Source: Minisyncoccota bacterium
GTDB lineage: Bacteria; Patescibacteriota; Minisyncoccia; Phycocordibacterales; UBA918
Assembly: GCA_041688155.1 (NCBI GenBank)
Contig: JBDNIW010000003.1
Coordinates: 95,397 to 159,396, forward strand
DNA: 64,000 nt
Direction: 5' to 3'
The position numbers were made by a program, and so were the translations under genes. A model generated the notes under the pieces. It searched no databases. It was not told the DNA's origin and saw nothing but the letters and a program-made list of their open reading frames with translations. Of the stretch, positions 6,822-62,515 are shown in pieces (positions within the stretch are counted from its first letter, which is position 1; each line of letters begins with the position of its first letter).

Positions 6822-8054
6822 TTGATAATGAAAGTTCTTACCTTCAGTTGGGAGTATCCTCCAGCCAAAAACGGCGGCCTTGGAGTCGCCTGCTTTGGTT
6901 TAACGCGCGAACTACTACACGACGGTGTGGAGGTGACCTTGGTGTTACCGAAAACCCAAGTCATTAAGGGTGACGTGCGGGTGTTGTTTGCGGATACTGA
7001 ACGCCTGGTGCGGATGAGTGAATATGAGCAGTCGTTCCCTGGACCCTATCACCACGCTACAACGATGGTTGACTCAGTTATCGGGTACGATGCTACCGGC
7101 AAACCAATTCTCCGGTCACGAACGATTCTCGAAGAAGCCCATCGCTTTGCCCACCAAGCAGCCGTCATTGCTCGTATGGAGCAGTTTGACGTGATACACG
7201 CTCACGACTGGACTTCGTATCTGGCTGGAGTTGCAGCCAAGATTGCTAGTGGTAAGCCATTGGTATTGCACGTACATGCCACATCATTTGATCAGGCGGC
7301 TGGTGACAACGTCGATCCGAGCATGCATCAAATTGAGCTCGAAGGGTTCGCCATGGCCGACCGGGTAGTGGCGGTAAGTAATTTCACCCGCAACATGCTG
7401 ATCAACAAACACGGCGTGCAGCCCGACAAAATCGAGGTGGTACACAACGGCTGCGATGCGGAAGAGGTAATCGTGCTTGAGCCAACCCTCCAAGCGCTAC
7501 GCGACCAAGGCAAGAAAATCGTTCTCTATCACGGCCGCATTAGTATCCAAAAAGGGGTTGATTATTTTGTGCATGCCGCCAGACGGGTGGTCGATGTCGA
7601 CCCGAACGTGGTGTTTGTTATCTCAGGCTGGGGCGACATGATAAAACAGGTTATCCACCAAGTGGGTGAGATGGGACTATCAGAACATGTCCGGTTCGCC
7701 GGGGCCACTTGGGAGCAGGAGCGTGACCGGCTGTATCAGAGTGTTGATTTGTTTGTGATGCCGTCGGTGTCGGAGCCATTTGGGTTGGTGCCGCTCGAAG
7801 CGCTGCAGCACGGGACCCCTTCAATCATTACCAAACAGTCCGGCGTGGCCGAAGTCCTCACCCACGCCCTCAAAGTTGATTTTTGGGATGTGGACCAGAT
7901 GGCCAACCAAATCTTGTCCGCGTTGCGCTACCCAGTTATGGGCGAGCAGATTGTCAAAGAAGGTAGGTTGCAGCTGTTGGGTCTGTCGTGGCAAAAAGCC
8001 GCCGCCAAGATGGCTGCTCTCTATCGTAATCTGCTACAATACGCAACATCATAA
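6822..8054 (+). CDS. GT4-type glycosyltransferase, glycogen/starch-synthase-like
   Basis: 410 aa; N-terminal KVLTFSWEYPPAKNGGLGVA and C-terminal EPFGLVPLEALQHGTP retaining-GT motif. Confidence 0.75.
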   Translation: MIMKVLTFSWEYPPAKNGGLGVACFGLTRELLHDGVEVTLVLPKTQVIKGDVRVLFADTERLVRMSEYEQSFPGPYHHATTMVDSVIGYDATGKPILRSRTILEEAHRFAHQAAVIARMEQFDVIHAHDWTSYLAGVAAKIASGKPLVLHVHATSFDQAAGDNVDPSMHQIELEGFAMADRVVAVSNFTRNMLINKHGVQPDKIEVVHNGCDAEEVIVLEPTLQALRDQGKKIVLYHGRISIQKGVDYFVHAARRVVDVDPNVVFVISGWGDMIKQVIHQVGEMGLSEHVRFAGATWEQERDRLYQSVDLFVMPSVSEPFGLVPLEALQHGTPSIITKQSGVAEVLTHALKVDFWDVDQMANQILSALRYPVMGEQIVKEGRLQLLGLSWQKAAAKMAALYRNLLQYATS

Positions 8055-8056
8055 CT

Positions 8057-9511
8057 ATGCTTACTGTTTGCCCTTATTTCCATGTCCACCAACCGTACCG
8101 GATCAAAAAATACCGGGTGTTTGATATCGGGACTGACACTGAGTATTTTAACGATGACTCAGAAACTGATTTGAATAACCGACGGATTGTCGAAAAAGTC
8201 GCCAATAAGTCATACCGGCCAACCAACAAAATCCTCAAGGAGCTACTCGACCAGCACCCAGAATTCCGGTTCAACCTGTCGTTCTCGGGTACTGCGCTCG
8301 ATCAGTTCGAAGCCTACGCCCCTGACGTATTAGAGTCATTTCAAGAACTGGTCGCAACCGGTCGGGTTGAGATCCTCGCTGACACGTATCATCACTCACT
8401 GGCATTCTTCTACTCGGTGCCAGAATTCAAACGCCAAGTGCAGAAGCACGAACGACGGATCAAACAATTGTTCGGGGTCAAGCCGCGCGTGTTCCGGAAC
8501 ACTGAGCTGTCGTACCGCAACGACCTGGCTAAATGGTGTGAGGATAACGGCTACCTCGGGATCATGGCCGAAGGTTGGGAAAAGTACCTTGGGTGGCGGA
8601 GTCCCAATTTTCTCTACCATCCACCAGGCTGCTCCAAAATTAAAATTCTTCTCAAGAACTACAAGCTGTCGGACGACATTGCGTTTCGGTTTGGGAACAA
8701 ACAGTGGTCGAGTTGGCCGCTGTCGGCCGACACCTACGCCGGCTGGATTCACTCCAACCACGGGGATGGCGAGACAGTGAACTTGTTTATGGACTACGAG
8801 AGTTTTGGTGAACACCAGTGGGCTGATACTGGGATTTTTGATTTTCTGCGAGCGCTCCCAGAGACGCTTCTGCGTCACCCTGACACCAGTTTCAAAACCG
8901 CGACCGAGACCGTGCAAGCATACGACGCCAAGGGTGAGTACGATGTGCCAGACGTACTGACTTGGGCTGACACCGACCGCGACTTGACCGCTTGGAACGG
9001 CAACGACATCCAGCGCGATGCGCTCGCGGCGACGTACCGAATGGAAGAGAATGTGATGAAGACGGGGAAGCGTGACTTGATCGAGAAGTGGCGCAAACTA
9101 CAGACGTCAGACCACTTCTATTACATGTGTACCAAGTGGTCTAACGACGGAGACGTGCACGCGTATTTCTCTCCGTACGAATCCCCGTACGATGCATACA
9201 TCGCGTTTATGAATGCGTTGTCTGATCTCAAGTTGCGAGTTGATCATGTGGTGAACGAGCAGGTTGCTAAGCAAGCCGCCGAGAGTGAGGTTGTCAGTCA
9301 GGCCAGCGGCAGTCCCGATTTTGTCCCACTTGCACCGCCGAGCGTGAACCCTCCCAGCAATAGCCGTGACGACGCTGAGTCTGGCCGCGTCTCGCACGAT
9401 AACCAAACCATCAAGCCAGAAGAAAAACAGCGACTACATCCTCTACAAAACATCTGGAACCGGTTCAAGTCAATCTTCCCAGTTGTCCCTCGCAGTAACC
9501 AGTCCACGTGA
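8057..9511 (+). CDS. glycoside hydrolase family 57 (alpha-glucan processing)
   Basis: N-terminal CPYFHVHQPYR GH57 signature; ends with TGA. Confidence 0.75.
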   Translation: MLTVCPYFHVHQPYRIKKYRVFDIGTDTEYFNDDSETDLNNRRIVEKVANKSYRPTNKILKELLDQHPEFRFNLSFSGTALDQFEAYAPDVLESFQELVATGRVEILADTYHHSLAFFYSVPEFKRQVQKHERRIKQLFGVKPRVFRNTELSYRNDLAKWCEDNGYLGIMAEGWEKYLGWRSPNFLYHPPGCSKIKILLKNYKLSDDIAFRFGNKQWSSWPLSADTYAGWIHSNHGDGETVNLFMDYESFGEHQWADTGIFDFLRALPETLLRHPDTSFKTATETVQAYDAKGEYDVPDVLTWADTDRDLTAWNGNDIQRDALAATYRMEENVMKTGKRDLIEKWRKLQTSDHFYYMCTKWSNDGDVHAYFSPYESPYDAYIAFMNALSDLKLRVDHVVNEQVAKQAAESEVVSQASGSPDFVPLAPPSVNPPSNSRDDAESGRVSHDNQTIKPEEKQRLHPLQNIWNRFKSIFPVVPRSNQST

Positions 9512-37908: not shown

Positions 37909-38431
37909 GATTGGTTTTATACTCTTCAGGTTCGTTGCCTTTCTGCCAAGTTTTGATCGCGCGGTCGGGGAAGAGGATGCCGTCGAGGTGGTCGTATTCG
38001 TGCTGCATAATCTGGGCGAGGAGGCCACCAGCGCCGCGGCTGTATCGCTGACCACTGTCATCAGTAGCCTCGATGGTGACGTTTTTGTGACGAGCGACGA
38101 TGCCGTACGTGTCAGGGAGCGATAGGCAACCTTCACCCATTTCTTGCATTTTTTTGGACATTTTGGTGAAGCGGGGGTTGATGGCGATGATGGTCGGGAG
38201 GGCGCCCTCGCGGTCTTTGGATTGGTCTTCGATGATGAACACCCGTTTGCTGATGCCGATTTGGGGCGCGGCAATAGCCACCGCGGCATAGCCGTCGACA
38301 TCGTAGGTTTTGATCGCTTGCCTCAGGTCGCGGACGATTTTGGCGACCGTACCATCAGCAAATTCCTCAGCCGAGCATTCCTCCGCCATGGTATGCAAGG
38401 CAGGGTGGTTTTCTGGGACTAGTTTAGCCAT
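37898..38431 (-). CDS. def: peptide deformylase
   Basis: GCLSLP and QHEYDHLDG motifs; start at MAKLVPEN; overlaps fmt by 11 nt. Confidence 0.85.
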   Translation of the reverse strand: MAKLVPENHPALHTMAEECSAEEFADGTVAKIVRDLRQAIKTYDVDGYAAVAIAAPQIGISKRVFIIEDQSKDREGALPTIIAINPRFTKMSKKMQEMGEGCLSLPDTYGIVARHKNVTIEATDDSGQRYSRGAGGLLAQIMQHEYDHLDGILFPDRAIKTWQKGNEPEEYKTNHDK

Positions 38432-38570
38432 AGGTAATGTGTAAAATATACGGTAAAAGGCAGTCATCGTCCAGTAAATACAGGGGTCGAACCCCTGTAT
38501 TTCACCATAAAAGAAAAGGGCCGCGGGTGACGCTGTTTATTTACTGTGGTCAAAGTTAAAATTATACACC

Positions 38571-40466: not shown

Positions 40467-40671
40467 GTTGGGTAGTATAGCAAACTAGAGAAATCTGGCT
40501 TTGTTGGGTGGTTCTGGTTGATTCTGAGTGGTTCGTTGAGCTGCGAAGGTGGGATAAGGAATAACGTGACGGTTTTTTCGGTGGCACACTATTGCAACAC
40601 TCAACTCCGCCGCACTCCTGCAAAACCATTTCCATACATCATTCGACGACCTGCAATAACTTTGGTATAGT

Positions 40672-40905
40672 TTGGTTATGAAAACTCAGACATTAACAGT
40701 CGAATATGACCGCGAGGCCGATGGGCGATGGATAGCAGAAATCCCTAGCGTTCCGGGAGCGATGGCGTATGGTGCCACCAAAGCACAAGCCAGACGACAG
40801 GCGTCGGCAATCGCTTTGCGCACCTTGGCTGACCAAGTTGAGTCTGGTCGCTCACCACGAGTGCTGGCCCACTTTTTTTCTCATGGGACAGTGGCGCACG
40901 GTTAA
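40672..40905 (+). CDS. hicB: type II antitoxin HicB-like (UPF0150 N-domain)
   Basis: 77 aa, LTVEYDREADGRWIAEIPSVPGAMAYGATKAQARRQA. Confidence 0.6.
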   Translation: MVMKTQTLTVEYDREADGRWIAEIPSVPGAMAYGATKAQARRQASAIALRTLADQVESGRSPRVLAHFFSHGTVAHG

Positions 40906-41095
40906 AGCTCGTGCGCTGTTACGTTTACTTGAGGGTATCGGCTGACAGGTTGTACGTCAGCGGGGTTCACACCGTATTTTGACTAGACCGGGCTACCCTA
41001 ATTACACGTTTGCTTTTCATGACAAAGACGAAATTGGTCCTAAAATGTTGTCTCGTGTAGCTAAACACACCGGCTTGCGGCCAGAGGATTTATAG
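40883..41095 (+). pseudogene. hicA: hicA toxin with in-frame TGA at the conserved Trp codon (40943-40945)
   Basis: One frame reads MGQWRTVKARALLRLLEGIG-TGA-QVVRQRGSHRILTRPGYPNYTFAFHDKDEIGPKMLSRVAKHTGLRPEDL; this aligns to HicA LLEkdGWxlvRqkGSH...IL+qaGL with the stop exactly at the W position. Confidence 0.65.
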
Positions 41096-42604
41096 TTAAA
41101 ACTCCTCCAGATAGTCAACTTTTGCTCCCAGGGTGGTTAGGCGCTCAACCAGCTTTTCGTAGCCGCGGTTGATGCTGTAGATGTTGCGCAGGATTGAGGT
41201 GCCGTTGGCGGCGAGCATCCCAATCAGGAGAATGGTGGCAGGGCGCAGCGCCGGTGGGCAGACCAGCTCGGTGGCGGTGAGTTTGGTTGGGCCGGTGATG
41301 TAGATGCGGTGCGGGTCGGCCAATACCGTTTCGCCACCCAGGCGGTCAAGCTCGGTAAAATAGATGGCGCGTTTCTCGTACATCCAGTCGTGGATGAGGG
41401 TTTGGCCGGCCGCCTGGGTGGCGATGACGGCAAAAAACGGCAGGTTATCGGCGTTGATACCAGGGTAGGGCCGGGAGTGGATTTTCTCTAGTGAGGCGGT
41501 GAGTTTGGACGGCATGATGGTGAGGTCGACTAACTTGGTCCGGCCGTTGTGACTGAGGTAGGGTTTGGTTTGTTTGTACTTGAGCCCCATTTTTTGGAGG
41601 ACCAGTAGCTCTAGTTCGAGGAACTCGATGGGGCAGCGTTCGATGGTGATTTTAGAATGAGTAGTTATCGCCGCTGCGATAAAAAACATACTGTCGGTTG
41701 GGTCTTCTGAGAGGGTGTATTCGATTGGTTGGTTGATTTCCTTGATGCCGTGCACGGTGAGGGTGGTGGTGCCGATACCGTCAATCCGTACACCGACGGC
41801 CTCTAGGAACGTGCATAACTCTTGCACCATGTAGTTGGCGCTGCAGTATTTGATAGTGGTCGCCCCGGGTGAAAGGGCGGCGGCGAGGAGGGCATTCTCG
41901 GTTACCGTGTCGCCAGACTCGTAGAGGATGATTTCGGCTGGTTTGCGCGCGGCGTAGGTGATTTTGTAAGCATCTTGCGTCACGTTGATGTCGACACCAA
42001 AATGCTCAAGCGCGTAAAAATGCGGCCGGACGGTCCGGGAGCCGAGTTTGCAACCACCTGACTGGGGCAAGGCAAATTTGTTGAGGTGGTGGATCAGCGG
42101 GCCGATAAACATCACGATGCTGCGGGTGCGCTTGGCCGCGGTTTCATTGATGGCTTTGAGGTCAAACTTTTTGGGTGGGGTGAGGCTGATGGTGCTGCCA
42201 GTCCACTCGATTTTGACCCCGATACTCTCAAGCACTTCGGTCAGGCGGTAGACTTCCTCGATGCGGGGCATCTTGTGGATGGTAGTTTTACCCTTGTTCA
42301 GGAGCGCTGCGCACAGTAGTCCTACGGCGCCGTTTTTACTGGTGTTGGTGACGACCGTGCCAGATAGCTTGTGGCCGCCCTCAATCTGCAGGTTCATGGT
42401 GCCAGGGGAGAGGGTGACGAGGTTTTTGCCCAGCGCCTTACTAATTCTAGCTAGCATTTCGGCTGAGACATTTTGCCGCCCAGACTCCATCCGCGCGACC
42501 GCGCTTTGTGTGCTTTTAATTTTTCCAGCCAAATCAGACTGGGTCAGGCCGGATGATTCACGCAAGTCAGCAATTCGTCCTCCGATGTTCGTTTCAGATT
42601 TCAT
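41096..42604 (-). CDS. murA: XRE-family HTH domain fused to UDP-N-acetylglucosamine 1-carboxyvinyltransferase (MurA)
   Basis: 502 aa; residues 8-60 are a Cro/C1-type HTH (LTQSDLAGKIKSTQSAVARMESG); from MNLQIEGGHKLSGTV onward a full-length MurA including the active Cys (GGCKLGSRTVRPH). Confidence 0.75.
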   Translation of the reverse strand: MKSETNIGGRIADLRESSGLTQSDLAGKIKSTQSAVARMESGRQNVSAEMLARISKALGKNLVTLSPGTMNLQIEGGHKLSGTVVTNTSKNGAVGLLCAALLNKGKTTIHKMPRIEEVYRLTEVLESIGVKIEWTGSTISLTPPKKFDLKAINETAAKRTRSIVMFIGPLIHHLNKFALPQSGGCKLGSRTVRPHFYALEHFGVDINVTQDAYKITYAARKPAEIILYESGDTVTENALLAAALSPGATTIKYCSANYMVQELCTFLEAVGVRIDGIGTTTLTVHGIKEINQPIEYTLSEDPTDSMFFIAAAITTHSKITIERCPIEFLELELLVLQKMGLKYKQTKPYLSHNGRTKLVDLTIMPSKLTASLEKIHSRPYPGINADNLPFFAVIATQAAGQTLIHDWMYEKRAIYFTELDRLGGETVLADPHRIYITGPTKLTATELVCPPALRPATILLIGMLAANGTSILRNIYSINRGYEKLVERLTTLGAKVDYLEEF

Positions 42605-43968: not shown

Positions 43969-44253
43969 TTACACACGCTCTTGCGCTGTATGGTGAATCG
44001 TAATAATTACTACGGTTGGTTGCGGATCGGTGTCATCTACTCGATAGATGATTTGAAATGGACCAATAAAAACTCGCCGATATTGGTCGCGGAATTGCGC
44101 ACCTCGGTTTGGTAGTAGACTCAGAGACTCACACTTGGATTCTATGGCCTCAATCATTTTGACTGCAGCTGTTGGAGAATCTCCAGCGATGTAGTCGCCA
44201 ATCATAGTTAATTGCGATAGAGCGGCGGACGATAGAATTACTCTAGCGCGCAT
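43969..44253 (-). CDS. type II toxin, ParE/RelE family
   Basis: 94 aa; family-like IYRVDDTDPQPTVVIITIHHTAQ. Confidence 0.6.
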   Translation of the reverse strand: MRARVILSSAALSQLTMIGDYIAGDSPTAAVKMIEAIESKCESLSLLPNRGAQFRDQYRRVFIGPFQIIYRVDDTDPQPTVVIITIHHTAQERV

Positions 44254-44443
44254 AGCGCTGTTTCAGGATTGCAAAGGCTTCAGTTGCGTCTATTGCAGAG
44301 TCGTGTAATAGCGACGCTTCACCAGCGGCGATTTTGCGTTCGATAATCATGGCCTCAATCTGAATTGCGAGTTCTTGCTGGTCTGTTTCGGGTAAGTCAG
44401 CAGCGGAGGTGATGATGGCTGTGAGTTGGTGTTTCATGTCCAA
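44243..44443 (-). CDS. antitoxin (addiction-module component, TIGR02574-like)
   Basis: 66 aa, LPETDQQELAIQIEAMIIERK; overlaps the toxin gene by 11 nt. Confidence 0.5.
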   Translation of the reverse strand: MDMKHQLTAIITSAADLPETDQQELAIQIEAMIIERKIAAGEASLLHDSAIDATEAFAILKQRYAR

Positions 44444-44543: not shown

Positions 44544-47288
44544 ATGGAAGGAACACCAAAACAATTTGCCAGTCCCCAAGAAGAGGTGGAGTTTTTGCGG
44601 GCGCAGTTGGCAGCGCGGGAGCGGGTAGTGTTGGCGCGGACGCCAGAGCTCGATCCGGCTGAGCGTGAATCGATGGGTCGACAGGAGCTACAGTCGTACA
44701 CCAGTTTTACCCCCAAACTAATTCTGCATCCTGAATACGAATTATCAGGGCAGGCAATGCATGAAGCCGTGGCGACGGTCGAGACAGCTTCTGACCCAGT
44801 GGAGGAGATTTTGCAGATAGCAAAAGAAAAGGGAATCAAAAACGCCTTATCGGTGCTGGCGAGCACTGCAGATGCTTACACCATTGACGAAGTTCATCGG
44901 CGATTGATTGAGCTGATCACTACCGGCGTCAACATCGCAGATATGAAAGAAGGGGTTCCGCCCTGGCACGTGTTGCACATGACGTTGTTTGAGGTCACGT
45001 TGCCAGCTAGTGCTAGCGATGCGCCGCCAGTCCCGCTAGCGGAGCTGGTCGGCACCATGGAGCAATTGCTCGCTGGGCTGCGGACGATTGGATCGATCAA
45101 AAGTGGTAACCACTTTGTGTTTGAAATTGCAGTCGCAAACAACACCGAAGATATCATTTTTTACGTCGCGGTCCCCAATGAATTCACGTCGTTGTTCGAG
45201 AAGCAAACGTTGTCACTATTCCCGCACGCTGAGTTGACCGTCCAGCCGCAGGACTACAACGTGTACATGGCAGACGGCGTGACCCAAATTGCCGAGCTGT
45301 CACTCAAAAAACACCCCATCTACCCGCTCAAAACCGTCGCTGCGTTTGCGACTGATCCACTTGAAGTCGTTCTCAATGCCTTTTCCAAAATCGGCCGTGC
45401 CGAAGGCGCGGCCGTGCAGTTTGCTATCCGCCACCCTCAGGGCAAGTACCTCAAAACCTACCAAGACATCATCAAGCAAGTAGAAAAAGGTCTCAAACCA
45501 AACGAAGCTATCGCGCGTAGTACCACCGGTGGTGCCATTATGGCGGAGGTTGGTGGACTATTTGCTAGCAAAAAATCAGCCGAGGCGCTCGCCAAACCGC
45601 TTGAGGTCGACACGGTCGCCATCGAACTGTTCCGCCAGAAAACCGCCCGCGAGATTGTTGAAGTGACCATCAGAATTGTGGTGTCAGCGGCGGATGCTGC
45701 CCGCGTGCAGCAAGTTTTGTCCGAGCTGGAGTCGGCCTGGCACCAGTTTGATACGGTTGAAGCCAACCAGTTTGTGTTTACCCGCCTCAAGGGCAACAAC
45801 CTCAAGTTGGCTGAGAAAGCGTTCTCTTTTCGTCAGTTTGACCAGCGGAACATCATACCGCTGGCGCTGGACGAACTCGCCACACTGGCTCATTTCCCAG
45901 CTAGTGGCGTGCAGTCAGCCCATCAGTTCAAGCAGTCATACTCACAGACTGTGCCAGCGCCATCAAACATGCCAGACAGTGGGACGCTATTGGGGATCAA
46001 TCGTCACCGCAACGTTGAGAAAGACGTATTCATCAGCGCTGAAGACCGACTGCGGCATTTCTACATCATCGGGCAAACCGGAACCGGTAAGACGACCCTG
46101 ATGAAAAACATGATTGTGCAAGACATCCAGCGTGGGGACGGGGTATGTATGATTGACCCGCACGGGACGGACATCGAGGATGTACTCGGGGCTGTTCCAC
46201 CCGAGCGAGCAGATGATGTGATTTATTTTGATCCGTCGAACCTTGACCACGTGGTGGGGCTCAATATGCTCGAGTATGACTACAGCAAACCCGAGCAAAA
46301 AACCTTTGTCGTCAACGAGTTGTTTTCCATCTTCCAAAAGCTATACGGAGCTAACCCAGAATCCATGGGGCCGATGTTTGAGCAGTATTTCCGCAACGCC
46401 ACCATGCTGGTGATGGAAGACCCAGACAGTGGTAACACCCTGATGGACATAGGTCGGGTACTGTCCGATGCTGCCTACCGCCGGCAGAAACTAGCCAAAG
46501 CGACCAATCCTGTCGTCATTCAGTTTTGGAAAGAGATCGCGGGCAAAGCCGGTGGGGACGCTGCGCTTGAAAACATTGTGCCGTACATCGTCTCCAAATT
46601 CGACGTGTTCACCGCCAACGACTACATGCGACCAATTATCGGCCAGCAGCACAGCGCGTTTGATTTCAGGCAAGTCATGGATCAGAAAAAAATCCTCCTG
46701 GTGAACCTGTCCAAGGGTCGCCTGGGGGAGATTAATGCCAACCTGATTGGGATGATTATCGTGGGCAAACTCCTGATGGCGGCGCTGTCACGGGTTGATG
46801 ATCCTACCAAATCATTCCCACCGTTCTACCTGCACATGGATGAGTTCCAGAACATCTCCACCAACTCTATCTCGGCGATACTGTCCGAGGCGCGCAAGTA
46901 CAAACTCGGTCTGACGATGGCGCACCAGTTCATCGCGCAGCTGCAGCCTGATATCAAAGATGCAGTGTTTGGCAACGTTGGGTCGATGGCGGCGTTCCGG
47001 GTCGGTCCGGAAGACGCGCAGTACCTGGAGCAGCAATACGCGCCGACCATCACCGCAACTGATCTGATGAACGTCCCTAACCGTAACGCATTTCTGCGCG
47101 TGCTCGCCAACGGTACCCCGACGCCACCGTTTAGTATCGGCACACTGGCACCGGCTGAGCCCGATCTGGCCCGAGTCCAGCACATGATCGCCATGAGTGC
47201 GCAAAGATACGGTACACCCCGAGCGCAAATCGAAGCGGACATCGCCGCTCGTTATCATAAACCACCCCGACCAACCATCACGTTATAG
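44544..47288 (+). CDS. VirD4/TraD/TraG-like coupling-protein P-loop ATPase with ~430-aa N-terminal domain of unknown function and no TM anchor
   Basis: 914 aa; Walker A GQTGTGKTT, CMIDPHGTD, Walker B/DEF region FYLHMDEFQN, and RKYKLGLTMAHQFIAQL typical of T4CP/FtsK-like ATPases; the N-terminus is hydrophilic. Confidence 0.65.
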   Translation: MEGTPKQFASPQEEVEFLRAQLAARERVVLARTPELDPAERESMGRQELQSYTSFTPKLILHPEYELSGQAMHEAVATVETASDPVEEILQIAKEKGIKNALSVLASTADAYTIDEVHRRLIELITTGVNIADMKEGVPPWHVLHMTLFEVTLPASASDAPPVPLAELVGTMEQLLAGLRTIGSIKSGNHFVFEIAVANNTEDIIFYVAVPNEFTSLFEKQTLSLFPHAELTVQPQDYNVYMADGVTQIAELSLKKHPIYPLKTVAAFATDPLEVVLNAFSKIGRAEGAAVQFAIRHPQGKYLKTYQDIIKQVEKGLKPNEAIARSTTGGAIMAEVGGLFASKKSAEALAKPLEVDTVAIELFRQKTAREIVEVTIRIVVSAADAARVQQVLSELESAWHQFDTVEANQFVFTRLKGNNLKLAEKAFSFRQFDQRNIIPLALDELATLAHFPASGVQSAHQFKQSYSQTVPAPSNMPDSGTLLGINRHRNVEKDVFISAEDRLRHFYIIGQTGTGKTTLMKNMIVQDIQRGDGVCMIDPHGTDIEDVLGAVPPERADDVIYFDPSNLDHVVGLNMLEYDYSKPEQKTFVVNELFSIFQKLYGANPESMGPMFEQYFRNATMLVMEDPDSGNTLMDIGRVLSDAAYRRQKLAKATNPVVIQFWKEIAGKAGGDAALENIVPYIVSKFDVFTANDYMRPIIGQQHSAFDFRQVMDQKKILLVNLSKGRLGEINANLIGMIIVGKLLMAALSRVDDPTKSFPPFYLHMDEFQNISTNSISAILSEARKYKLGLTMAHQFIAQLQPDIKDAVFGNVGSMAAFRVGPEDAQYLEQQYAPTITATDLMNVPNRNAFLRVLANGTPTPPFSIGTLAPAEPDLARVQHMIAMSAQRYGTPRAQIEADIAARYHKPPRPTITL

Positions 47289-47306: not shown

Positions 47307-48911
47307 ATGTCTTTTGAAGGGAATCATGGCAAGTATAAATATCAAACCGAGGTTTCTGTTGCCCAGCCAGAATCCGACCAGACACGCGTCGAAAACCCTG
47401 AGCTAGACGAAAACCAGGACGATGTGGCACTCGATTCAATCGAGGCGGTCGATGCATTCCACGCTGAGGTAGAAACGTCTGTTACTGAGCGGCTGCAGGC
47501 CGCTGACACGGCTATCGCCGAGCACTCAGTCCTGTCGGGTCAGCTGCAAGAATTTACCGAGTATCTCGAGAGTGTCAGGGTAAAGCTACGGGGCGGGTTT
47601 GCCTTGTCGGAATTGGATCAGGCCCACGTTCAAGAGATATACGAACGACTCATGGACGAGGTAGACGGTTTGACCGAGACAATTGAGGAACCACCGTTTG
47701 ACCCGGAATCGTACATCCACGAGCAGTTTGCTGAGCACCCTTACTTGACAGCTAGCAAACGTCAAAGTGCGTACTCTTTACTACGCGAGTACAAACGAGC
47801 TTTGAAAGAAACCGGTGACCAGGAGGCGCAAGAGTTGGCTGCACAACTAGCGCTTGAAATACAAGAGTTGGTCGACGAATTAGTCGGCAATGATTTGCTG
47901 CCAGAAGAAGGGCAGGGGTCAGATTTAACTAAAAGAAAGGTGGGAACTAAGTTAACCCTAACATCATTAGATGAGGAGCTGCCAACTGTGGCAAAGGAAC
48001 ATACATCTGAGACGACTAATGATCAAGACTCACAATCTATAGCTGGGCACGACTACGTTGACCTGCCGCAGGCTCAAGCAGAATCAGTGCAGCCAGCTTT
48101 AGAACCAGAACCTATAGCTGAAGTAGTTGCTATGCAACCAGCAAAGCAAGCTGAGGTAACACCTAAAAAACTTGGTTTCTTTAAAAAACTAACCAGCCGG
48201 TTTACCCGTAACCGAGAAGCTGACAATCCAAATTATAAACGTCATCTGGCCGAAGTCGCCCACGCTGCCGAGGTCGCGCAAGACGTCGCCGACCTGCGAG
48301 CCATGGCTGCCAGACGGGCAGAGGCGCAGCGACCGTCCCCGCTTATGTTGACGCAAGACATGAGACTACCAAATGAATTATCGCCAGAAGAGCAGCTGCA
48401 GCAAGTAATGGCAGAAAATGGTCAAGACTCGGTAGAATGGGTTGCTAACAAAGAAAATTTCGCACCATTTGAGCCACACAAAACTGAAACTACACCCCAA
48501 TTTACTCCAGCTTCAGTGCAAGAAAAATCCTGGTTGTCTCGAGCTGAACAAATCGATTCCCGACAAGCGCAGCTACAGCTGCTCCGGGCTGTTGGGAATG
48601 TTGAGGCTATCCCTACCGGGTGGTTTGCTTCCAACCTGGACGCTGGCCAAAGTCCATACCAAGTGTTGGGTAATGACAGTTTTGAAGATTTAGCAACCTA
48701 CGCTCAGTCAAATGAAACCCGCACGGAGTGTCGCGCTTGGCTCAAAAGTAATGGTATCGACGAACACGCTTTTTTCAATTGGATGGATCTGTTGCCTGAG
48801 ATGCAAGCCCGTGGAGTGCAAACAGATGGTCAGTCGTTTAAGCAAGTGATTGATACTTTGCTAGAGTTGCGGGCAGCTGAGCAACGTAATACACAGCCAA
48901 CCGCAGAGTAG
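47307..48911 (+). CDS. acidic coiled-coil protein, hypothetical
   Basis: 534 aa, D/E-rich, no recognised domain; 18-nt gap from the ATPase gene. Confidence 0.5.
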   Translation: MSFEGNHGKYKYQTEVSVAQPESDQTRVENPELDENQDDVALDSIEAVDAFHAEVETSVTERLQAADTAIAEHSVLSGQLQEFTEYLESVRVKLRGGFALSELDQAHVQEIYERLMDEVDGLTETIEEPPFDPESYIHEQFAEHPYLTASKRQSAYSLLREYKRALKETGDQEAQELAAQLALEIQELVDELVGNDLLPEEGQGSDLTKRKVGTKLTLTSLDEELPTVAKEHTSETTNDQDSQSIAGHDYVDLPQAQAESVQPALEPEPIAEVVAMQPAKQAEVTPKKLGFFKKLTSRFTRNREADNPNYKRHLAEVAHAAEVAQDVADLRAMAARRAEAQRPSPLMLTQDMRLPNELSPEEQLQQVMAENGQDSVEWVANKENFAPFEPHKTETTPQFTPASVQEKSWLSRAEQIDSRQAQLQLLRAVGNVEAIPTGWFASNLDAGQSPYQVLGNDSFEDLATYAQSNETRTECRAWLKSNGIDEHAFFNWMDLLPEMQARGVQTDGQSFKQVIDTLLELRAAEQRNTQPTAE

Positions 48912-54058: not shown

Positions 54059-54530
54059 CCGATATCCCTATGTACCGCAGGTTTAGTGCCGGACAATCCT
54101 CCGCCAGCGACCGCCATTGATAGCCCAACACCAGCAAAATACTCCAATCGATTGGAGTATTTTTGTGTTCGTGCTGGTAGGTGGGGTGGTCCTATGGCAA
54201 TAGTTTGGCAAGCCTTTTGGTCGCACGCTCGACTCGCTCTGCCTGCTTACCGTACAAACCAAAAGCTCGTCGTAGTGGTTTGATTCTAATGGTCCAACAG
54301 TTCGTTGATATTGATCAACCAGAACACTGACACTCAGTACAGAACTCTAGTACTGCCACAACGGTCGTTGTTGGCGTGTGCACGCAGAGATGTACGAGTC
54401 GAGTGTTTGGGCTCCAAGACCGTTAGGCTATTGATTACTCAGTCCAACAGCCTCACCCAACAAGCACCCCCAACACTGACAAAAGTACCGCTTTTTTGCT
54501 CCAAACTGTGGCTCGTAGTACAATGGCTTT

Positions 54531-55604
54531 ATGAAAAAAATGTCGCACTATATCAATCGTCTGCTTGCTACTGTGTCTACTGATGTGGCGATTGATCTAG
54601 GGACGGCTAACACGTTGGTGTACGTCAAAGGGAAGGGGATAGTGCTCAACGAACCAACTATTGTAGCCATCAACAAGAAAACTGGGCAGCTCGTGGCGGT
54701 TGGTAATGAGGCCAAAATGATGCAGGGCCGCACGCCACAACACATCGAGGTGATCAGGCCGCTTGTTGATGGAGTAATTTCTGACTTTGAAGTGGCCGAA
54801 GAGATGTTGTCGTACCTCATAAACAAAATCCGCAGCGACATGCGGTCGTTGATTGCACCGCGGATGCTGATTGGGGTGCCGTCTGGAATCACCAACGTAG
54901 AAATGCGGGCTGCCCAAGACGCCGCCAAAAATGCTGGAGCCAGAGAAGTGTTTCTGATTGAAGAGCCAGTTGCAGCCGCCATTGGCGCTAAACTGCCCAT
55001 CCATAAAGCCATCGGCAGCATGATTATTGACATTGGCGGCGGTACCACTGACATCGCGGTGTTGTCACTCAATGGCCTAGTGGTGTCACGGAACCTGCGT
55101 GTGGCGGGTGACCACCTCAACACTGCGATTATGGTATATATGAGGGACCAGTTCAAAATTCAAGTGGGGGAGAAAACTGCTGAGGATGCCAAAGTTGCTC
55201 TGGCGTCAATTGCGCACTCAGACGGTGGTAAAGAAATGGTAGCTCGCGGACGAGATGTGGTGACGGGATTGCCGCGCGAGGTGGTCATTACTGACGCTGA
55301 CGTGCGTGACGCGGTGGCGTCCAAACTAGAAACTATCGTTGACGCCGTGCGCGGTGTGCTCGAAGAAACGCCACCGGAAGTGATGGCTGATATCATGCAG
55401 CGAGGTATCCACTTGGCCGGTGGTGGAGCCTTGATACCAGGGCTTGCGTCATTGCTTGAGCACGCACTCGAGGTACCAGTTATTGTCGTGCCAGACCCTC
55501 TGCGCGCCGTAATTCGCGGGGCTGGGATAGTGGTTGAGGATCTGGAGTTATATAAAGATTTGTTAATTGATCATGCTGATACGTTCGCGCCGCATCTCGG
55601 ATAA
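54531..55604 (+). CDS. mreB: rod shape-determining protein MreB
   Basis: VAIDLGTANTLVYVKGKGIVLNEPTIVAI; followed by mreC, mreD, mrdA. Confidence 0.9.
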   Translation: MKKMSHYINRLLATVSTDVAIDLGTANTLVYVKGKGIVLNEPTIVAINKKTGQLVAVGNEAKMMQGRTPQHIEVIRPLVDGVISDFEVAEEMLSYLINKIRSDMRSLIAPRMLIGVPSGITNVEMRAAQDAAKNAGAREVFLIEEPVAAAIGAKLPIHKAIGSMIIDIGGGTTDIAVLSLNGLVVSRNLRVAGDHLNTAIMVYMRDQFKIQVGEKTAEDAKVALASIAHSDGGKEMVARGRDVVTGLPREVVITDADVRDAVASKLETIVDAVRGVLEETPPEVMADIMQRGIHLAGGGALIPGLASLLEHALEVPVIVVPDPLRAVIRGAGIVVEDLELYKDLLIDHADTFAPHLG

Positions 55605-61598: not shown

Positions 61599-61621
61599 AT
61601 CAGTCGTAACTTTACAGATGT

Positions 61622-62515
61622 ATGAACCACGAAACAGTCTTGCTTAGCGAGGCAGTCGAAGCACTAGCAATCAGGCCGGACAGTACCATCGTCGATACGA
61701 CGTTTGGCGCAGGTGGCCACGCGACCCAGATAGTGTCGCAGTTAGATGCAACTGGTCAATACATTGGGATTGATACCGACCAAACAGCGCTACGTCATAA
61801 TTTGAATGAACTGGAAAACGTCACTCTGGTTCACGGTAATTTCCGTGACCTACACACATTGATGGGTTCTTTAGAAATTGAAAAAGTAGACGGTATCCTC
61901 GCTGATCTCGGGTGGCGGATGGAGCAGTTCTCTGGTAATGGGCGAGGGTTCTCGTTTCGTCACGACGAACCGCTCCTGATGACCCTCGGAGAGCCGAGTG
62001 ACTATCCGTTTACTGCTCGCGATATCGTCAACGAGTGGGACGAACATGTCCTAGCTGACATCATCTATGGCTACGGGGAAGAACGGTTCGCCCGACGCAT
62101 TGCCAAGCGAATCGTTGAGACCCGGGATGAGTCACCCATCGAGACGAGTAAGCAGCTATCAGACCTGATTGTCGGGGCGTATCCAGCGGTGGCTCGACAC
62201 GGACGCACACACGTTGCAACCAAAACCTTCCAAGCGTTGCGAATAGCTGTCAACGAAGAGTTGACTGCCGTTGAACAGCTGGTCGAACAGGGGATTGAAT
62301 TATTGGCACCAAACGGTCGACTAGTAATCATAACTTTTCACAGTATCGAAGATCGCGTAGTCAAACACGCTTTCAAAGCAGCCCAAGCGGCAGAACGCGG
62401 GAACGTTCTGACCAAAAAACCAATCACCCCCAGCAGCGAGGAGCTGGAACACAATCCAAGGGCGCGGAGTGCAAAACTCCGAATATTTGAAAAATCTAAT
62501 ATCTCCACAAAATGA
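61622..62515 (+). CDS. rsmH: 16S rRNA (cytosine1402-N4)-methyltransferase RsmH
   Basis: 297 aa; SAM-binding motifs; dcw cluster position. Confidence 0.85.
   Translation: MNHETVLLSEAVEALAIRPDSTIVDTTFGAGGHATQIVSQLDATGQYIGIDTDQTALRHNLNELENVTLVHGNFRDLHTLMGSLEIEKVDGILADLGWRMEQFSGNGRGFSFRHDEPLLMTLGEPSDYPFTARDIVNEWDEHVLADIIYGYGEERFARRIAKRIVETRDESPIETSKQLSDLIVGAYPAVARHGRTHVATKTFQALRIAVNEELTAVEQLVEQGIELLAPNGRLVIITFHSIEDRVVKHAFKAAQAAERGNVLTKKPITPSSEELEHNPRARSAKLRIFEKSNISTK

What the first reader, a model, noticed from the sequence alone, without database searches (positions are those of the whole stretch)
40883..41095. hicA toxin interrupted by a TGA exactly at the conserved Trp codon while hicB is intact
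The reading frame gives MGQWRTVKARALLRLLEGIG-TGA-QVVRQRGSHRIL...KMLSRVAKHTGL. This aligns to the HicA consensus with the stop at the G-W position. A TGG-to-TGA transition would inactivate the toxin but keep the antitoxin. Alternatives are UGA readthrough or Trp recoding. Other genes here end with TGA (GH57 at 9509-9511, for example), so a global UGA=Trp/Gly code is unlikely.
Basis: partly seen in the sequence, partly recalled or inferred. Interest (0 to 1): 0.5.

Follow-up and report, generated by a model that had tools for sequence, protein, structure and literature searches.

The report
Opal-stopped hicA toxin, intact hicB
One strain lineage of an uncultured Patescibacteria (CPR) bacterium carries a real G-to-A mutation that turns the invariant tryptophan codon of its HicA toxin gene into a TGA stop while the HicB antitoxin stays whole, which is an ordinary early step of toxin-antitoxin decay and not a sign of an altered genetic code.

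Summary
Window 40883-41095 (+) is a hicA frame with one in-frame TGA at 40943-40945. With Trp substituted it scores 59 bits on Pfam HicA_toxin. The stop sits at a Trp that is invariant in 46 homologues.

It is not an assembly error. Three independent assemblies from three sequencing runs carry the same TGA, and one of them is a strain 0.36% diverged from the window.

All 34 other loci that span codon 21 at the same priA-hicBA-murA position have TGG. These represent several alleles at 78-97% nucleotide identity. Outgroups show that the G->A change at 40945 is derived in the window lineage.

TGA is a normal stop in this window: Fpg and RsmH end at their family C-termini on TGA. Across 13 genes (about 3,700 codons) compared with the sister lineage, hicA codon 21 is the only difference involving a stop. 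No SECIS-like structure or Rfam hit was found.

hicB (40678-40905) is intact and its model has the HicB N-terminal fold.

Best reading: a lineage-specific opal nonsense allele that abolishes or strongly attenuates the toxin. The one open nuance is leaky UGA-C readthrough by tRNA-Trp, which would regenerate wild-type HicA at a low level. Interest is low.

The parts
40643..40671 (+). Promoter-like site (TCGACG, 17-nt spacer, TG-extended TATAGT) ending 6 nt before the hicB ATG. This spacing suggests a leaderless or near-leaderless hicBA transcript.
   Evidence: The consensus scan found it. The TTCGACGA ... TTTGGTATAGTTT block is invariant across lineages that are otherwise about 20% diverged. Function is inferred, not shown.
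40678..40905 (+). hicB antitoxin gene, 75 aa, intact. It consists of the HicB N-terminal (UPF0150-like) domain only and has no RHH or HTH DNA-binding domain.
   Evidence: The ORF is. Pfam UPF0150 gives a weak hit (19 bits, below the 27.3 cut-off). Homologues are named HicB family antitoxin by NCBI and JGI. The AF2 model has pLDDT 76.6 and a beta-beta-beta-alpha core. The top Foldseek hits are the HicB N-domain 6g1c, TTHA0281 2dsy and E. coli HicB 6hpb, at probability 0.99-1.00 and TM about 0.6. dN/dS is 0.01-0.13 across lineages. K39R and I66F are derived in the window lineage.
40890..40920 (+). Conserved hairpin (core GCGCACG/CGTGCGC) just after the hicA start, with the hicB stop codon TAA (40903-40905) in its loop. 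It is a candidate translational-coupling or regulatory element.
   Evidence: The scan is. The fold gives -16.3 kcal/mol, z=-1.9. The sequence is nearly invariant across lineages even at synonymous sites beyond the gene overlap. No covariation is available, so the role is inferred.
40883..40942 (+). hicA 5' part, codons 1-20 (MGQWRTVKARALLRLLEGIG). This is all that is made if termination occurs at the TGA.
   Evidence: The catalytic G-S-H motif (residues 28-30) lies downstream of the stop.
40943..40945 (+). In-frame opal codon TGA at the invariant Trp21 position. The derived G->A change is at 40945, and the next base is C (UGA-C context).
40946..41095 (+). hicA 3' part, codons 22-70 plus the TAG stop. 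It is still in frame and has no missense change relative to the TGG sister allele.
   Evidence: One search shows 5 synonymous and 0 missense differences against L001 over the full-length gene. Searches agree.

Best explanation
This is a chromosomal, vertically inherited hicB-hicA type II toxin-antitoxin module. It sits between priA and an HTH-fused murA in a genus-level group of uncultured Patescibacteria (CPR) bacteria.

In the window's strain lineage a single G->A transition at 40945 changed the invariant Trp21 codon of hicA (TGG) to the opal stop TGA. Ribosomes terminating there release a 20-residue peptide that lacks the G-S-H catalytic motif, so the RNase toxin is lost or reduced to trace amounts. 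The promoter-like site, the hicB antitoxin and the rest of the hicA frame are still untouched. The locus is therefore a young toxin pseudogene next to an intact, now largely orphan, antitoxin.

Shown: the sequence, the homology, the ancestral TGG state, the reproducibility of the allele, and the use of TGA as a stop elsewhere in the window. Inferred: loss of toxin activity, and the recency of the event.
For: - **HicA identity.** Pfam HicA_toxin at 59 bits with W substituted. The stop aligns with the W of solved HicA structures. W21, S29 and H30 are invariant in 46 homologues.
- **Ancestral state is TGG.** P0001 is 100% identical to the W-substituted protein and is carried on 16 contigs. All 34 non-window-lineage loci that span codon 21 at the same priA-hicBA-murA position carry TGG and an intact 70-codon hicA. 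Four outgroup alleles have G at 40945.
- **The allele is real.** L011 (SRR5468151) and L013 (SRR5468155) are 100% identical to the window. L012 (SRR13704942) differs at 15 of 4172 positions. All three carry TGA. No TGG version on the window haplotype is in the protein collection.
- **The module is selected elsewhere.** dN/dS is 0.03-0.14 for hicA and 0.01-0.13 for hicB, with synonymous sites near saturation.
- **Standard genetic code.** Fpg ends on TGA straight after its zinc finger (profile positions 1-29 of 30 at residues 263-291 of 291). RsmH is complete on TGA. The GH57 TGA is followed at once by a second stop. A crude gene map gives 41 TAA, 29 TAG and 12 TGA stops. Among 13 genes and about 3,700 codons compared with the sister lineage, hicA codon 21 is the only stop-involving difference.
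- **No recoding signal.** Rfam finds nothing. The downstream fold is no better than shuffles, z=0.12.
- **Decay of this HicA subfamily occurs elsewhere.** There is a frameshifted copy in L063 and a C-terminal remnant in L066, both in Pyrinomonadaceae MAGs.
- **The phenomenon is common.** Orphan antitoxins are abundant in bacterial populations (PMC7192599).
Against: - Apart from the stop, hicA has no missense change, indel or second lesion relative to the TGG allele (5 synonymous, 0 missense). Decay has therefore not visibly progressed, and continued selection cannot be excluded from the sequence.
- UGA followed by C is the weakest bacterial termination context known in E. coli (my own knowledge: Poole, Brown and Tate 1995).
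- Wild-type E. coli reads UGA through with Trp-tRNA-Trp at about 2-4% (PMC10570021). Some wild-type HicA may therefore still be made.
- prfB (RF2) and tRNA-Trp of this organism are outside the window and could not be inspected.
Confidence: 0.85

Rival explanations
1. Attenuated rather than dead toxin. The UGA-C codon is read through at a low percentage by near-cognate Trp-tRNA-Trp. Because Trp is the ancestral residue, this regenerates exactly wild-type HicA. The allele would then be a maintained, down-tuned hicBA module and not a pseudogene.
For: - The context is UGA followed by C.
- Trp-tRNA-Trp competes with RF2 at UGA and gives about 2-4% readthrough in wild-type E. coli (PMC10570021).
- tRNA-Trp(CCA) variants with a 4-bp anticodon stem, which boost UGA reading, occur in many bacterial phyla, and one Patescibacteriota family has fully reassigned UGA to Trp (PMC13092985).
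- The hicA frame downstream of the stop has only synonymous differences from the intact allele.
- The allele is shared by two strains 0.36% apart.
Against: - Only 2-3 synonymous changes map to the window branch, far too few to show selection after the stop arose.
- No readthrough-stimulating structure is present, and there is no Rfam hit.
- All other lineages keep TGG.
- No other gene in the window tolerates an in-frame TGA.
- HicB has acquired two amino-acid changes on this branch against a family background of dN/dS about 0.03. This hints at relaxed constraint on the antitoxin, not a maintained pair.
Confidence: 0.1
2. The organism, or this lineage, decodes UGA as an amino acid genome-wide (Trp as in table 4, or Gly as in table 25). 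On this view hicA is simply intact.
For: - UGA=Gly (Gracilibacteria/Absconditabacteria, class JAEDAM01) and UGA=Trp (family JAKLIH01) both exist within Patescibacteriota (PMC13092985).
- TGA is the rarest stop in the window.
Against: - Fpg, RsmH and GH57 terminate on TGA at the ends of their family profiles.
- Table 11 ORFs of at least 100 aa cover 88% of the window, and all large genes are full length.
- No other TGG/TGA exchange appears in about 3,700 codons compared with the sister lineage.
- No suppressor tRNA is in the window.
Confidence: 0.02
3. Sequencing or assembly error: the true base at 40945 is G.
For: A single-base G/A difference in a metagenome-derived sequence is the kind of change an error could produce.
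Against: Identical TGA in three assemblies from three different runs, one of them a distinguishable strain. Gene callers found no hicA on any shown contig carrying this hicB allele.
Confidence: 0.02
4. UGA encodes selenocysteine in HicA.
For: None beyond the presence of an in-frame UGA.
Against: The position is an invariant structural Trp, not a redox Cys. No SECIS-like hairpin lies downstream (z=0.12). There is no Rfam SECIS hit. Relatives have TGG, not TGC or TGT.
Confidence: 0.005

Closest known systems
HicAB type II toxin-antitoxin systems (E. coli K-12 HicAB, PDB 6hpb; Burkholderia pseudomallei HicAB, 6g26/4c26; Yersinia pestis HicA3B3, 4p78)
   Same: The HicA domain is present with the G-W and G-S-H motifs. 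The HicB model has the N-terminal toxin-binding fold. The two small genes are co-directional and overlapping.
   Different: - Gene order is hicB then hicA with a 23-nt overlap, whereas in E. coli hicA comes first (my own knowledge).
- HicB is 75 aa and lacks the C-terminal RHH/HTH DNA-binding domain of the solved HicBs, which are about 135-140 aa.
- hicA carries an opal stop at Trp21.
Single-domain UPF0150 / HicB-like proteins (Thermus thermophilus TTHA0281, PDB 2dsy; TTHA1013, PDB 1wv8)
   Same: Similar size (about 70-80 aa) and similar fold (TM about 0.6, rmsd 1.4-1.6 A, 25-26% identity). There is a weak Pfam UPF0150 hit.
   Different: Here the protein is demonstrably paired with a HicA gene at a conserved locus.
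Orphan antitoxins and degraded TA loci in bacterial populations (for example the Klebsiella pneumoniae survey, PMC7192599)
   Same: The antitoxin is retained while the cognate toxin is lost or inactivated. The same genomic context as the valid pair is kept.
   Different: This case is caught at the very first step: one nonsense substitution and nothing else. It lies in a module that is otherwise vertically inherited and under strong purifying selection across a CPR genus.
UGA-to-Trp reassignment or enhanced UGA reading in bacteria (Mycoplasmatales; Patescibacteriota family JAKLIH01; 4-bp anticodon-stem tRNA-Trp; PMC13092985)
   Same: A UGA sits at a conserved Trp position in a Patescibacteria genome.
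   Different: It is a single codon in a dispensable gene. TGA ends other genes in the same window, and no further TGG->TGA replacements were found.

Membership tests
HicA toxin (Pfam PF07927) | Sequence match to the HicA profile above the curated cut-off | tested here: met
   59.1 bits against a cut-off of 27 when the TGA is read as W. The fragment after the stop alone gives 20 bits, below the cut-off.
HicA toxin (Pfam PF07927) | Conserved catalytic His in the G-S-H motif and the G-W motif of the dsRBD-like fold | tested here: met
   GSH lies at residues 28-30 in frame. S29 and H30 are invariant in 46 homologues, and the motif aligns with B. pseudomallei HicA. The W codon itself is TGA.
HicA toxin (Pfam PF07927) | Uninterrupted reading frame encoding the whole domain | tested here: not met
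   In-frame TGA at codon 21. It is reproduced in L011-L013.
HicA toxin (Pfam PF07927) | mRNA-cleaving toxicity that is neutralised by HicB | not testable with these tools
   Needs expression assays.
HicB antitoxin | N-terminal HicB / UPF0150 (partial RNase H-like) fold | tested here: met
   AF2 model with pLDDT 76.6. The top Foldseek PDB hits are HicB N-domains and UPF0150 proteins at probability 0.99-1.00, though E-values are only 0.06-0.3. The Pfam UPF0150 hit is below its cut-off (19 against 27.3 bits). A profile search against PDB sequences found nothing.
HicB antitoxin | C-terminal RHH or HTH DNA-binding domain for autoregulation | tested here: not met
   The protein is 75 aa. After the long helix there is only a short helix and a disordered tail. 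Homologues are 70-90 aa.
Type II TA operon | Two small adjacent co-directional genes with a shared promoter, conserved as a pair | tested here: met
   There is a 23-nt overlap. The pair is conserved at the same locus in every lineage examined. A conserved promoter-like site lies upstream.
Alternative genetic code with UGA as sense (tables 4 / 25) | UGA not used as a terminator; in-frame UGAs at conserved Trp or Gly positions in many genes | tested here: not met
   Fpg, RsmH and GH57 end on TGA at their profile ends. The only gene-splitting TGA in the window is in hicA.
Alternative genetic code with UGA as sense (tables 4 / 25) | tRNA with a UCA anticodon (or a 4-bp anticodon-stem tRNA-Trp) and loss of RF2 | not testable with these tools
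   The window holds only tRNA-Asn. tRNA-Trp and prfB lie outside it.
Selenoprotein gene | SECIS hairpin shortly downstream of the UGA | tested here: not met
   The fold is no better than shuffles (z=0.12). There is no Rfam match.

The most novel reading that the evidence does not exclude
The opal allele is not a dead gene but a maintained, strongly down-tuned toxin. UGA-C would be read by Trp-tRNA-Trp at a few per cent, regenerating authentic HicA. This would be a natural example of UGA/Trp ambiguity being tolerated, or exploited, in a Patescibacteria lineage, a phylum in which UGA has been reassigned at least twice.
Probability: 0.07. Interest if true: 0.5.

Novelty: new member of a known kind. 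Interest (0 to 1): 0.15.

Why it matters
The practical value is for annotation. The locus should be called a hicA pseudogene (opal at Trp21) next to an intact single-domain hicB. It should not be taken as evidence for translation table 4 or 25 in this genome.

It also gives a clean, dated snapshot of the first step of toxin-antitoxin decay. The module is otherwise conserved and under strong purifying selection across a CPR genus. Sister strains that differ only by TGG versus TGA could be used to test what a chromosomal hicBA does in these episymbiotic bacteria.

If readthrough proved significant, the locus would be a small natural reporter for UGA leakiness in Patescibacteria.

Tried and rejected
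- **Exact-pattern scans for the window haplotype** (TGR allowed). They found nothing in metagenome contigs or genome contigs. A looser pattern recovered only the already known sister contig Ga0306872_100443. These collections therefore could not add allele counts. The exact-protein look-ups did.
- **The search for related loci in GTDB species representatives.** It returned only distant HicA genes (at most 67% identity over the full length) from Acidobacteriota and other phyla. No representative of this genus was found, so the organism could not be named more precisely than Patescibacteria (a 90%-cluster mate of MurA is labelled Candidatus Paceibacteria).
- **NCBIfam.** No hit for either protein.
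- **PDB sequence searches for HicB.** Single-sequence and profile searches gave only chance-level matches. The fold comparison was needed.
- **A possible second TGA-split gene at 54086-54583** (two same-frame ORFs). It was rejected because the translation is not protein-like and contains further stops.
- **Restart from the internal TTG at 40979** (38 aa). It was rejected as a functional product because it lacks the G-S-H motif.
- **A paper on HicA with a premature stop in Fusobacterium**. It concerns a cloning frameshift and is not relevant here.

Full report
**1. The observation**

Window 40883-41095 on the + strand reads ATG ... GGC TGA CAG ... TAG. It translates as MGQWRTVKARALLRLLEGIG*QVVRQRGSHRILTRPGYPNYTFAFHDKDEIGPKMLSRVAKHTGLRPEDL*. 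The in-frame stop is TGA at 40943-40945.

With Trp in place of the stop, the 70-residue protein matches Pfam HicA_toxin (PF07927) at 59.1 bits, E=4.8e-16, against a cut-off of 27. It aligns to the solved HicA of Burkholderia pseudomallei (4c26, 6g26) with the stop exactly on the W of the G-W motif. In an alignment of 46 homologues at 61-89% identity, W21 is invariant, as are S29 and H30 of the catalytic G-S-H motif.

Just upstream, 40678-40905 is an uninterrupted 75-codon ORF that overlaps the hicA start by 23 nt.

**2. Is the upstream gene hicB?**

Sequence evidence alone is weak. Pfam UPF0150 gives 19 bits, below its cut-off. NCBIfam gives nothing. PDB sequence and profile searches give only chance-level hits.

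Other evidence is stronger. Its many 70-90-residue homologues, mostly from Patescibacteria, are named HicB family antitoxin by NCBI and JGI. An AlphaFold model built on 35 of them (pLDDT 76.6, three strands plus a long helix) retrieves the following as top Foldseek PDB matches:
- the N-terminal domain of B. pseudomallei HicB (6g1c);
- Thermus TTHA0281 and TTHA1013;
- E. coli HicB (6hpb).

These matches have probability 0.99-1.00, TM about 0.6 and rmsd 1.1-1.6 A.

The protein is therefore a single-domain HicB. It has the toxin-binding fold but not the C-terminal RHH/HTH DNA-binding domain of the classical 135-140-residue HicBs. Gene order is hicB then hicA, the reverse of E. coli hicAB (my own knowledge).

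**3. Related sequences**

A protein search found P0001. This 108-residue ORF is the hicA frame with an artificial upstream extension. It is 100% identical to the W-substituted window protein and is present on 16 contigs. These contigs have the same gene order as the window: priA (631 aa), hicBA, HTH-fused murA (502 aa), mreB, parDE, and a T4SS-like ATPase. Their DNA is 94-97% identical to the window.

All ten contigs examined have TGG where the window has TGA. Within hicA the other five differences are all synonymous.

Look-ups with three further HicB alleles of the same 90% cluster brought 29 more loci at the same priA-hicBA-murA position, at 78-81% nucleotide identity. Every one that spans codon 21 has TGG. 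Every one that spans the whole gene has an intact 70-codon hicA.

With these as outgroups, the G->A change at 40945 is derived on the window branch. That branch also carries:
- in hicA, 2-3 synonymous changes and no missense change;
- in hicB, one synonymous change and two conservative replacements, K39R and I66F.

Across lineages both genes are under strong purifying selection. dN/dS is 0.03-0.14 for hicA and 0.01-0.13 for hicB, with synonymous sites close to saturation between the deeper lineages. The module is therefore an old, vertically inherited, selected part of this genus's chromosome. The opal codon is a unique recent event in one lineage.

**4. Is the TGA an error?**

The window's exact HicB allele is carried by 15 contigs from several sources. 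Three were retrieved:
- L011 (run SRR5468151) is 100% identical to the window over 6.2 kb.
- L013 (run SRR5468155) is 100% identical over 3.3 kb.
- L012 (run SRR13704942) differs at 15 of 4172 positions, none of them in hicBA.

All three have TGA. On none of the shown contigs did the gene caller find a hicA.

No protein corresponding to a TGG version on the window haplotype exists in the collection. P0001's 90% cluster has a single member, and the exact look-ups were negative.

The allele is therefore real and fixed in the sampled lineage. It is at least as old as the split of two strains 0.36% apart.

**5. Is UGA a sense codon here?**

The evidence says no.
- Fpg (29103-29978, minus strand) ends on TGA immediately after its C-terminal zinc finger. 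The zf-FPG profile positions 1-29 of 30 match residues 263-291 of 291.
- RsmH (61610-62515) covers its whole profile and ends on TGA.
- GH57 ends on TGA followed directly by a second stop.
- A crude gene map gives 41 TAA, 29 TAG and 12 TGA stops with 90% coverage. The only uncovered gap that corresponds to a recognisably broken gene is 40906-41095.
- A scan for same-frame ORF pairs separated by a TGA gave only off-frame noise inside real genes, apart from hicA. One candidate at 54086-54583 is not protein-like.
- Codon-by-codon comparison of 13 genes (about 3,700 codons) with the sister lineage found one stop-involving difference, hicA codon 21.
- The window contains only tRNA-Asn.
- The 76 nt from 8 nt upstream of the UGA onwards (40935-41010) fold no better than shuffles (z=0.12), and Rfam finds nothing. 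A SECIS or a known readthrough element is therefore unlikely.

**6. Mechanism**

Termination at codon 21 yields a 20-residue peptide without the catalytic His. An internal restart at TTG 40979 would give 38 residues that also lack the His. The straightforward consequence is loss of the RNase toxin.

hicB, its conserved promoter-like site (40643-40671) and the conserved hairpin around the hicB stop (40890-40920) remain.

This is the usual way a chromosomal TA pair starts to decay. Toxin loss is harmless while the antitoxin is present, whereas the reverse order would be lethal. Orphan antitoxins are abundant in bacterial populations (PMC7192599). Other decayed copies of this HicA subfamily are visible in Pyrinomonadaceae MAGs: a frameshifted copy in L063 and a C-terminal remnant in L066.

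The two HicB replacements on the window branch stand against a family background of dN/dS about 0.03. They are compatible with relaxed constraint on the antitoxin after toxin loss. The numbers are too small to say more, and the opposite order of events cannot be excluded.

**7. The open nuance**

TGG->TGA is the one nonsense change whose near-cognate suppression restores the wild-type residue. Trp-tRNA-Trp competes with RF2 at UGA and gives about 2-4% readthrough in wild-type E. coli (PMC10570021). UGA followed by C is the weakest termination context described in E. coli (my own knowledge: Poole et al. 1995).

Patescibacteriota include lineages with UGA=Gly and one with UGA=Trp. tRNA-Trp variants with 4-bp anticodon stems that boost UGA reading are widespread (PMC13092985).

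A trickle of authentic HicA is therefore plausible. A maintained attenuated allele cannot be excluded, because hicA shows no further lesions. However, only 2-3 synonymous changes map to the relevant branch, so the sequence gives no positive support. tRNA-Trp and prfB are outside the window. I put this rival at about 0.1.

**8. Verdict**

The feature is a genuine, lineage-specific opal nonsense allele of hicA beside an intact single-domain hicB, in a standard-code Patescibacteria genome. It is an ordinary kind of event in a previously undescribed member of a known system. Interest is low.

Noticed in passing
L001-L010 (for example L001:2787-3113), equivalent to window 40769-41095: In the TGG sister lineage, public gene calls report a 108-aa ORF. 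It is hicA extended 38 codons upstream through the hicB region in another frame. No hicB is called there at all, so the antitoxin is missed and the toxin is mis-started.
   Followed up: yes
window 40890-40920 (+): A hairpin with core GCGCACG/CGTGCGC lies 7 nt after the hicA ATG and has the hicB stop codon in its loop. The sequence is almost invariant across lineages whose synonymous sites are otherwise saturated, including positions beyond the gene overlap. It is a possible translational-coupling element.
   Followed up: partly
window 40643-40671 (+): An extended -10 promoter-like site (TGGTATAGT) ends only 6 nt before the hicB ATG and is invariant across lineages. This suggests a leaderless hicBA mRNA. 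hicA has no visible Shine-Dalgarno sequence.
   Followed up: partly
window 43969-44443 (-): A second type II TA pair lies 3 kb away. It is a ParE toxin (94 aa, Pfam 56 bits) with an overlapping 66-aa upstream partner. It is intact here and in the sister lineage, so toxin loss is specific to hicA.
   Followed up: partly
window 47307-48911 (+) and 35743-36207 (+); also 49.4-51.0 kb: These genes have no Pfam match and evolve very fast between the two lineages: 81 nonsynonymous against 55 synonymous codon differences, and 15 against 18. Neighbouring genes show about 10:100. Nucleotide identity also drops from about 94% to about 85% after 49.4 kb. The larger gene sits next to a T4SS-like ATPase (44544-47288), so these may be diversifying surface or host-interaction proteins.
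   Followed up: no
window 37894-37920 and 38522-38568, against L002:5864-6773 and 7375-7801: Two genes of the sister lineage are absent from the window lineage. They are a 253-aa acyltransferase-like gene and a 106-aa gene of unknown function between def and priA. The lineages therefore differ in gene content as well as in point mutations.
   Followed up: no
window 41096-42604 (-): MurA (EPSP_synthase fold) carries an N-terminal Xre-type HTH domain, for 502 aa in total. This is conserved in all lineages, but some gene calls start at 464 aa and drop the HTH.
   Followed up: no
L063:900-1120 and L066:2950-3090 (Pyrinomonadaceae MAGs): Decayed copies of the same HicA subfamily. One is frameshifted with GSH changed to SSH. 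The other retains only the C-terminal 30 or so codons.
   Followed up: partly
samples ERZ27315550, JGI 3300012031, JGI 3300028361: Contigs of two different hicBA lineages of this genus, about 20% apart in DNA, occur in the same metagenome samples. Several related populations therefore coexist.
   Followed up: no
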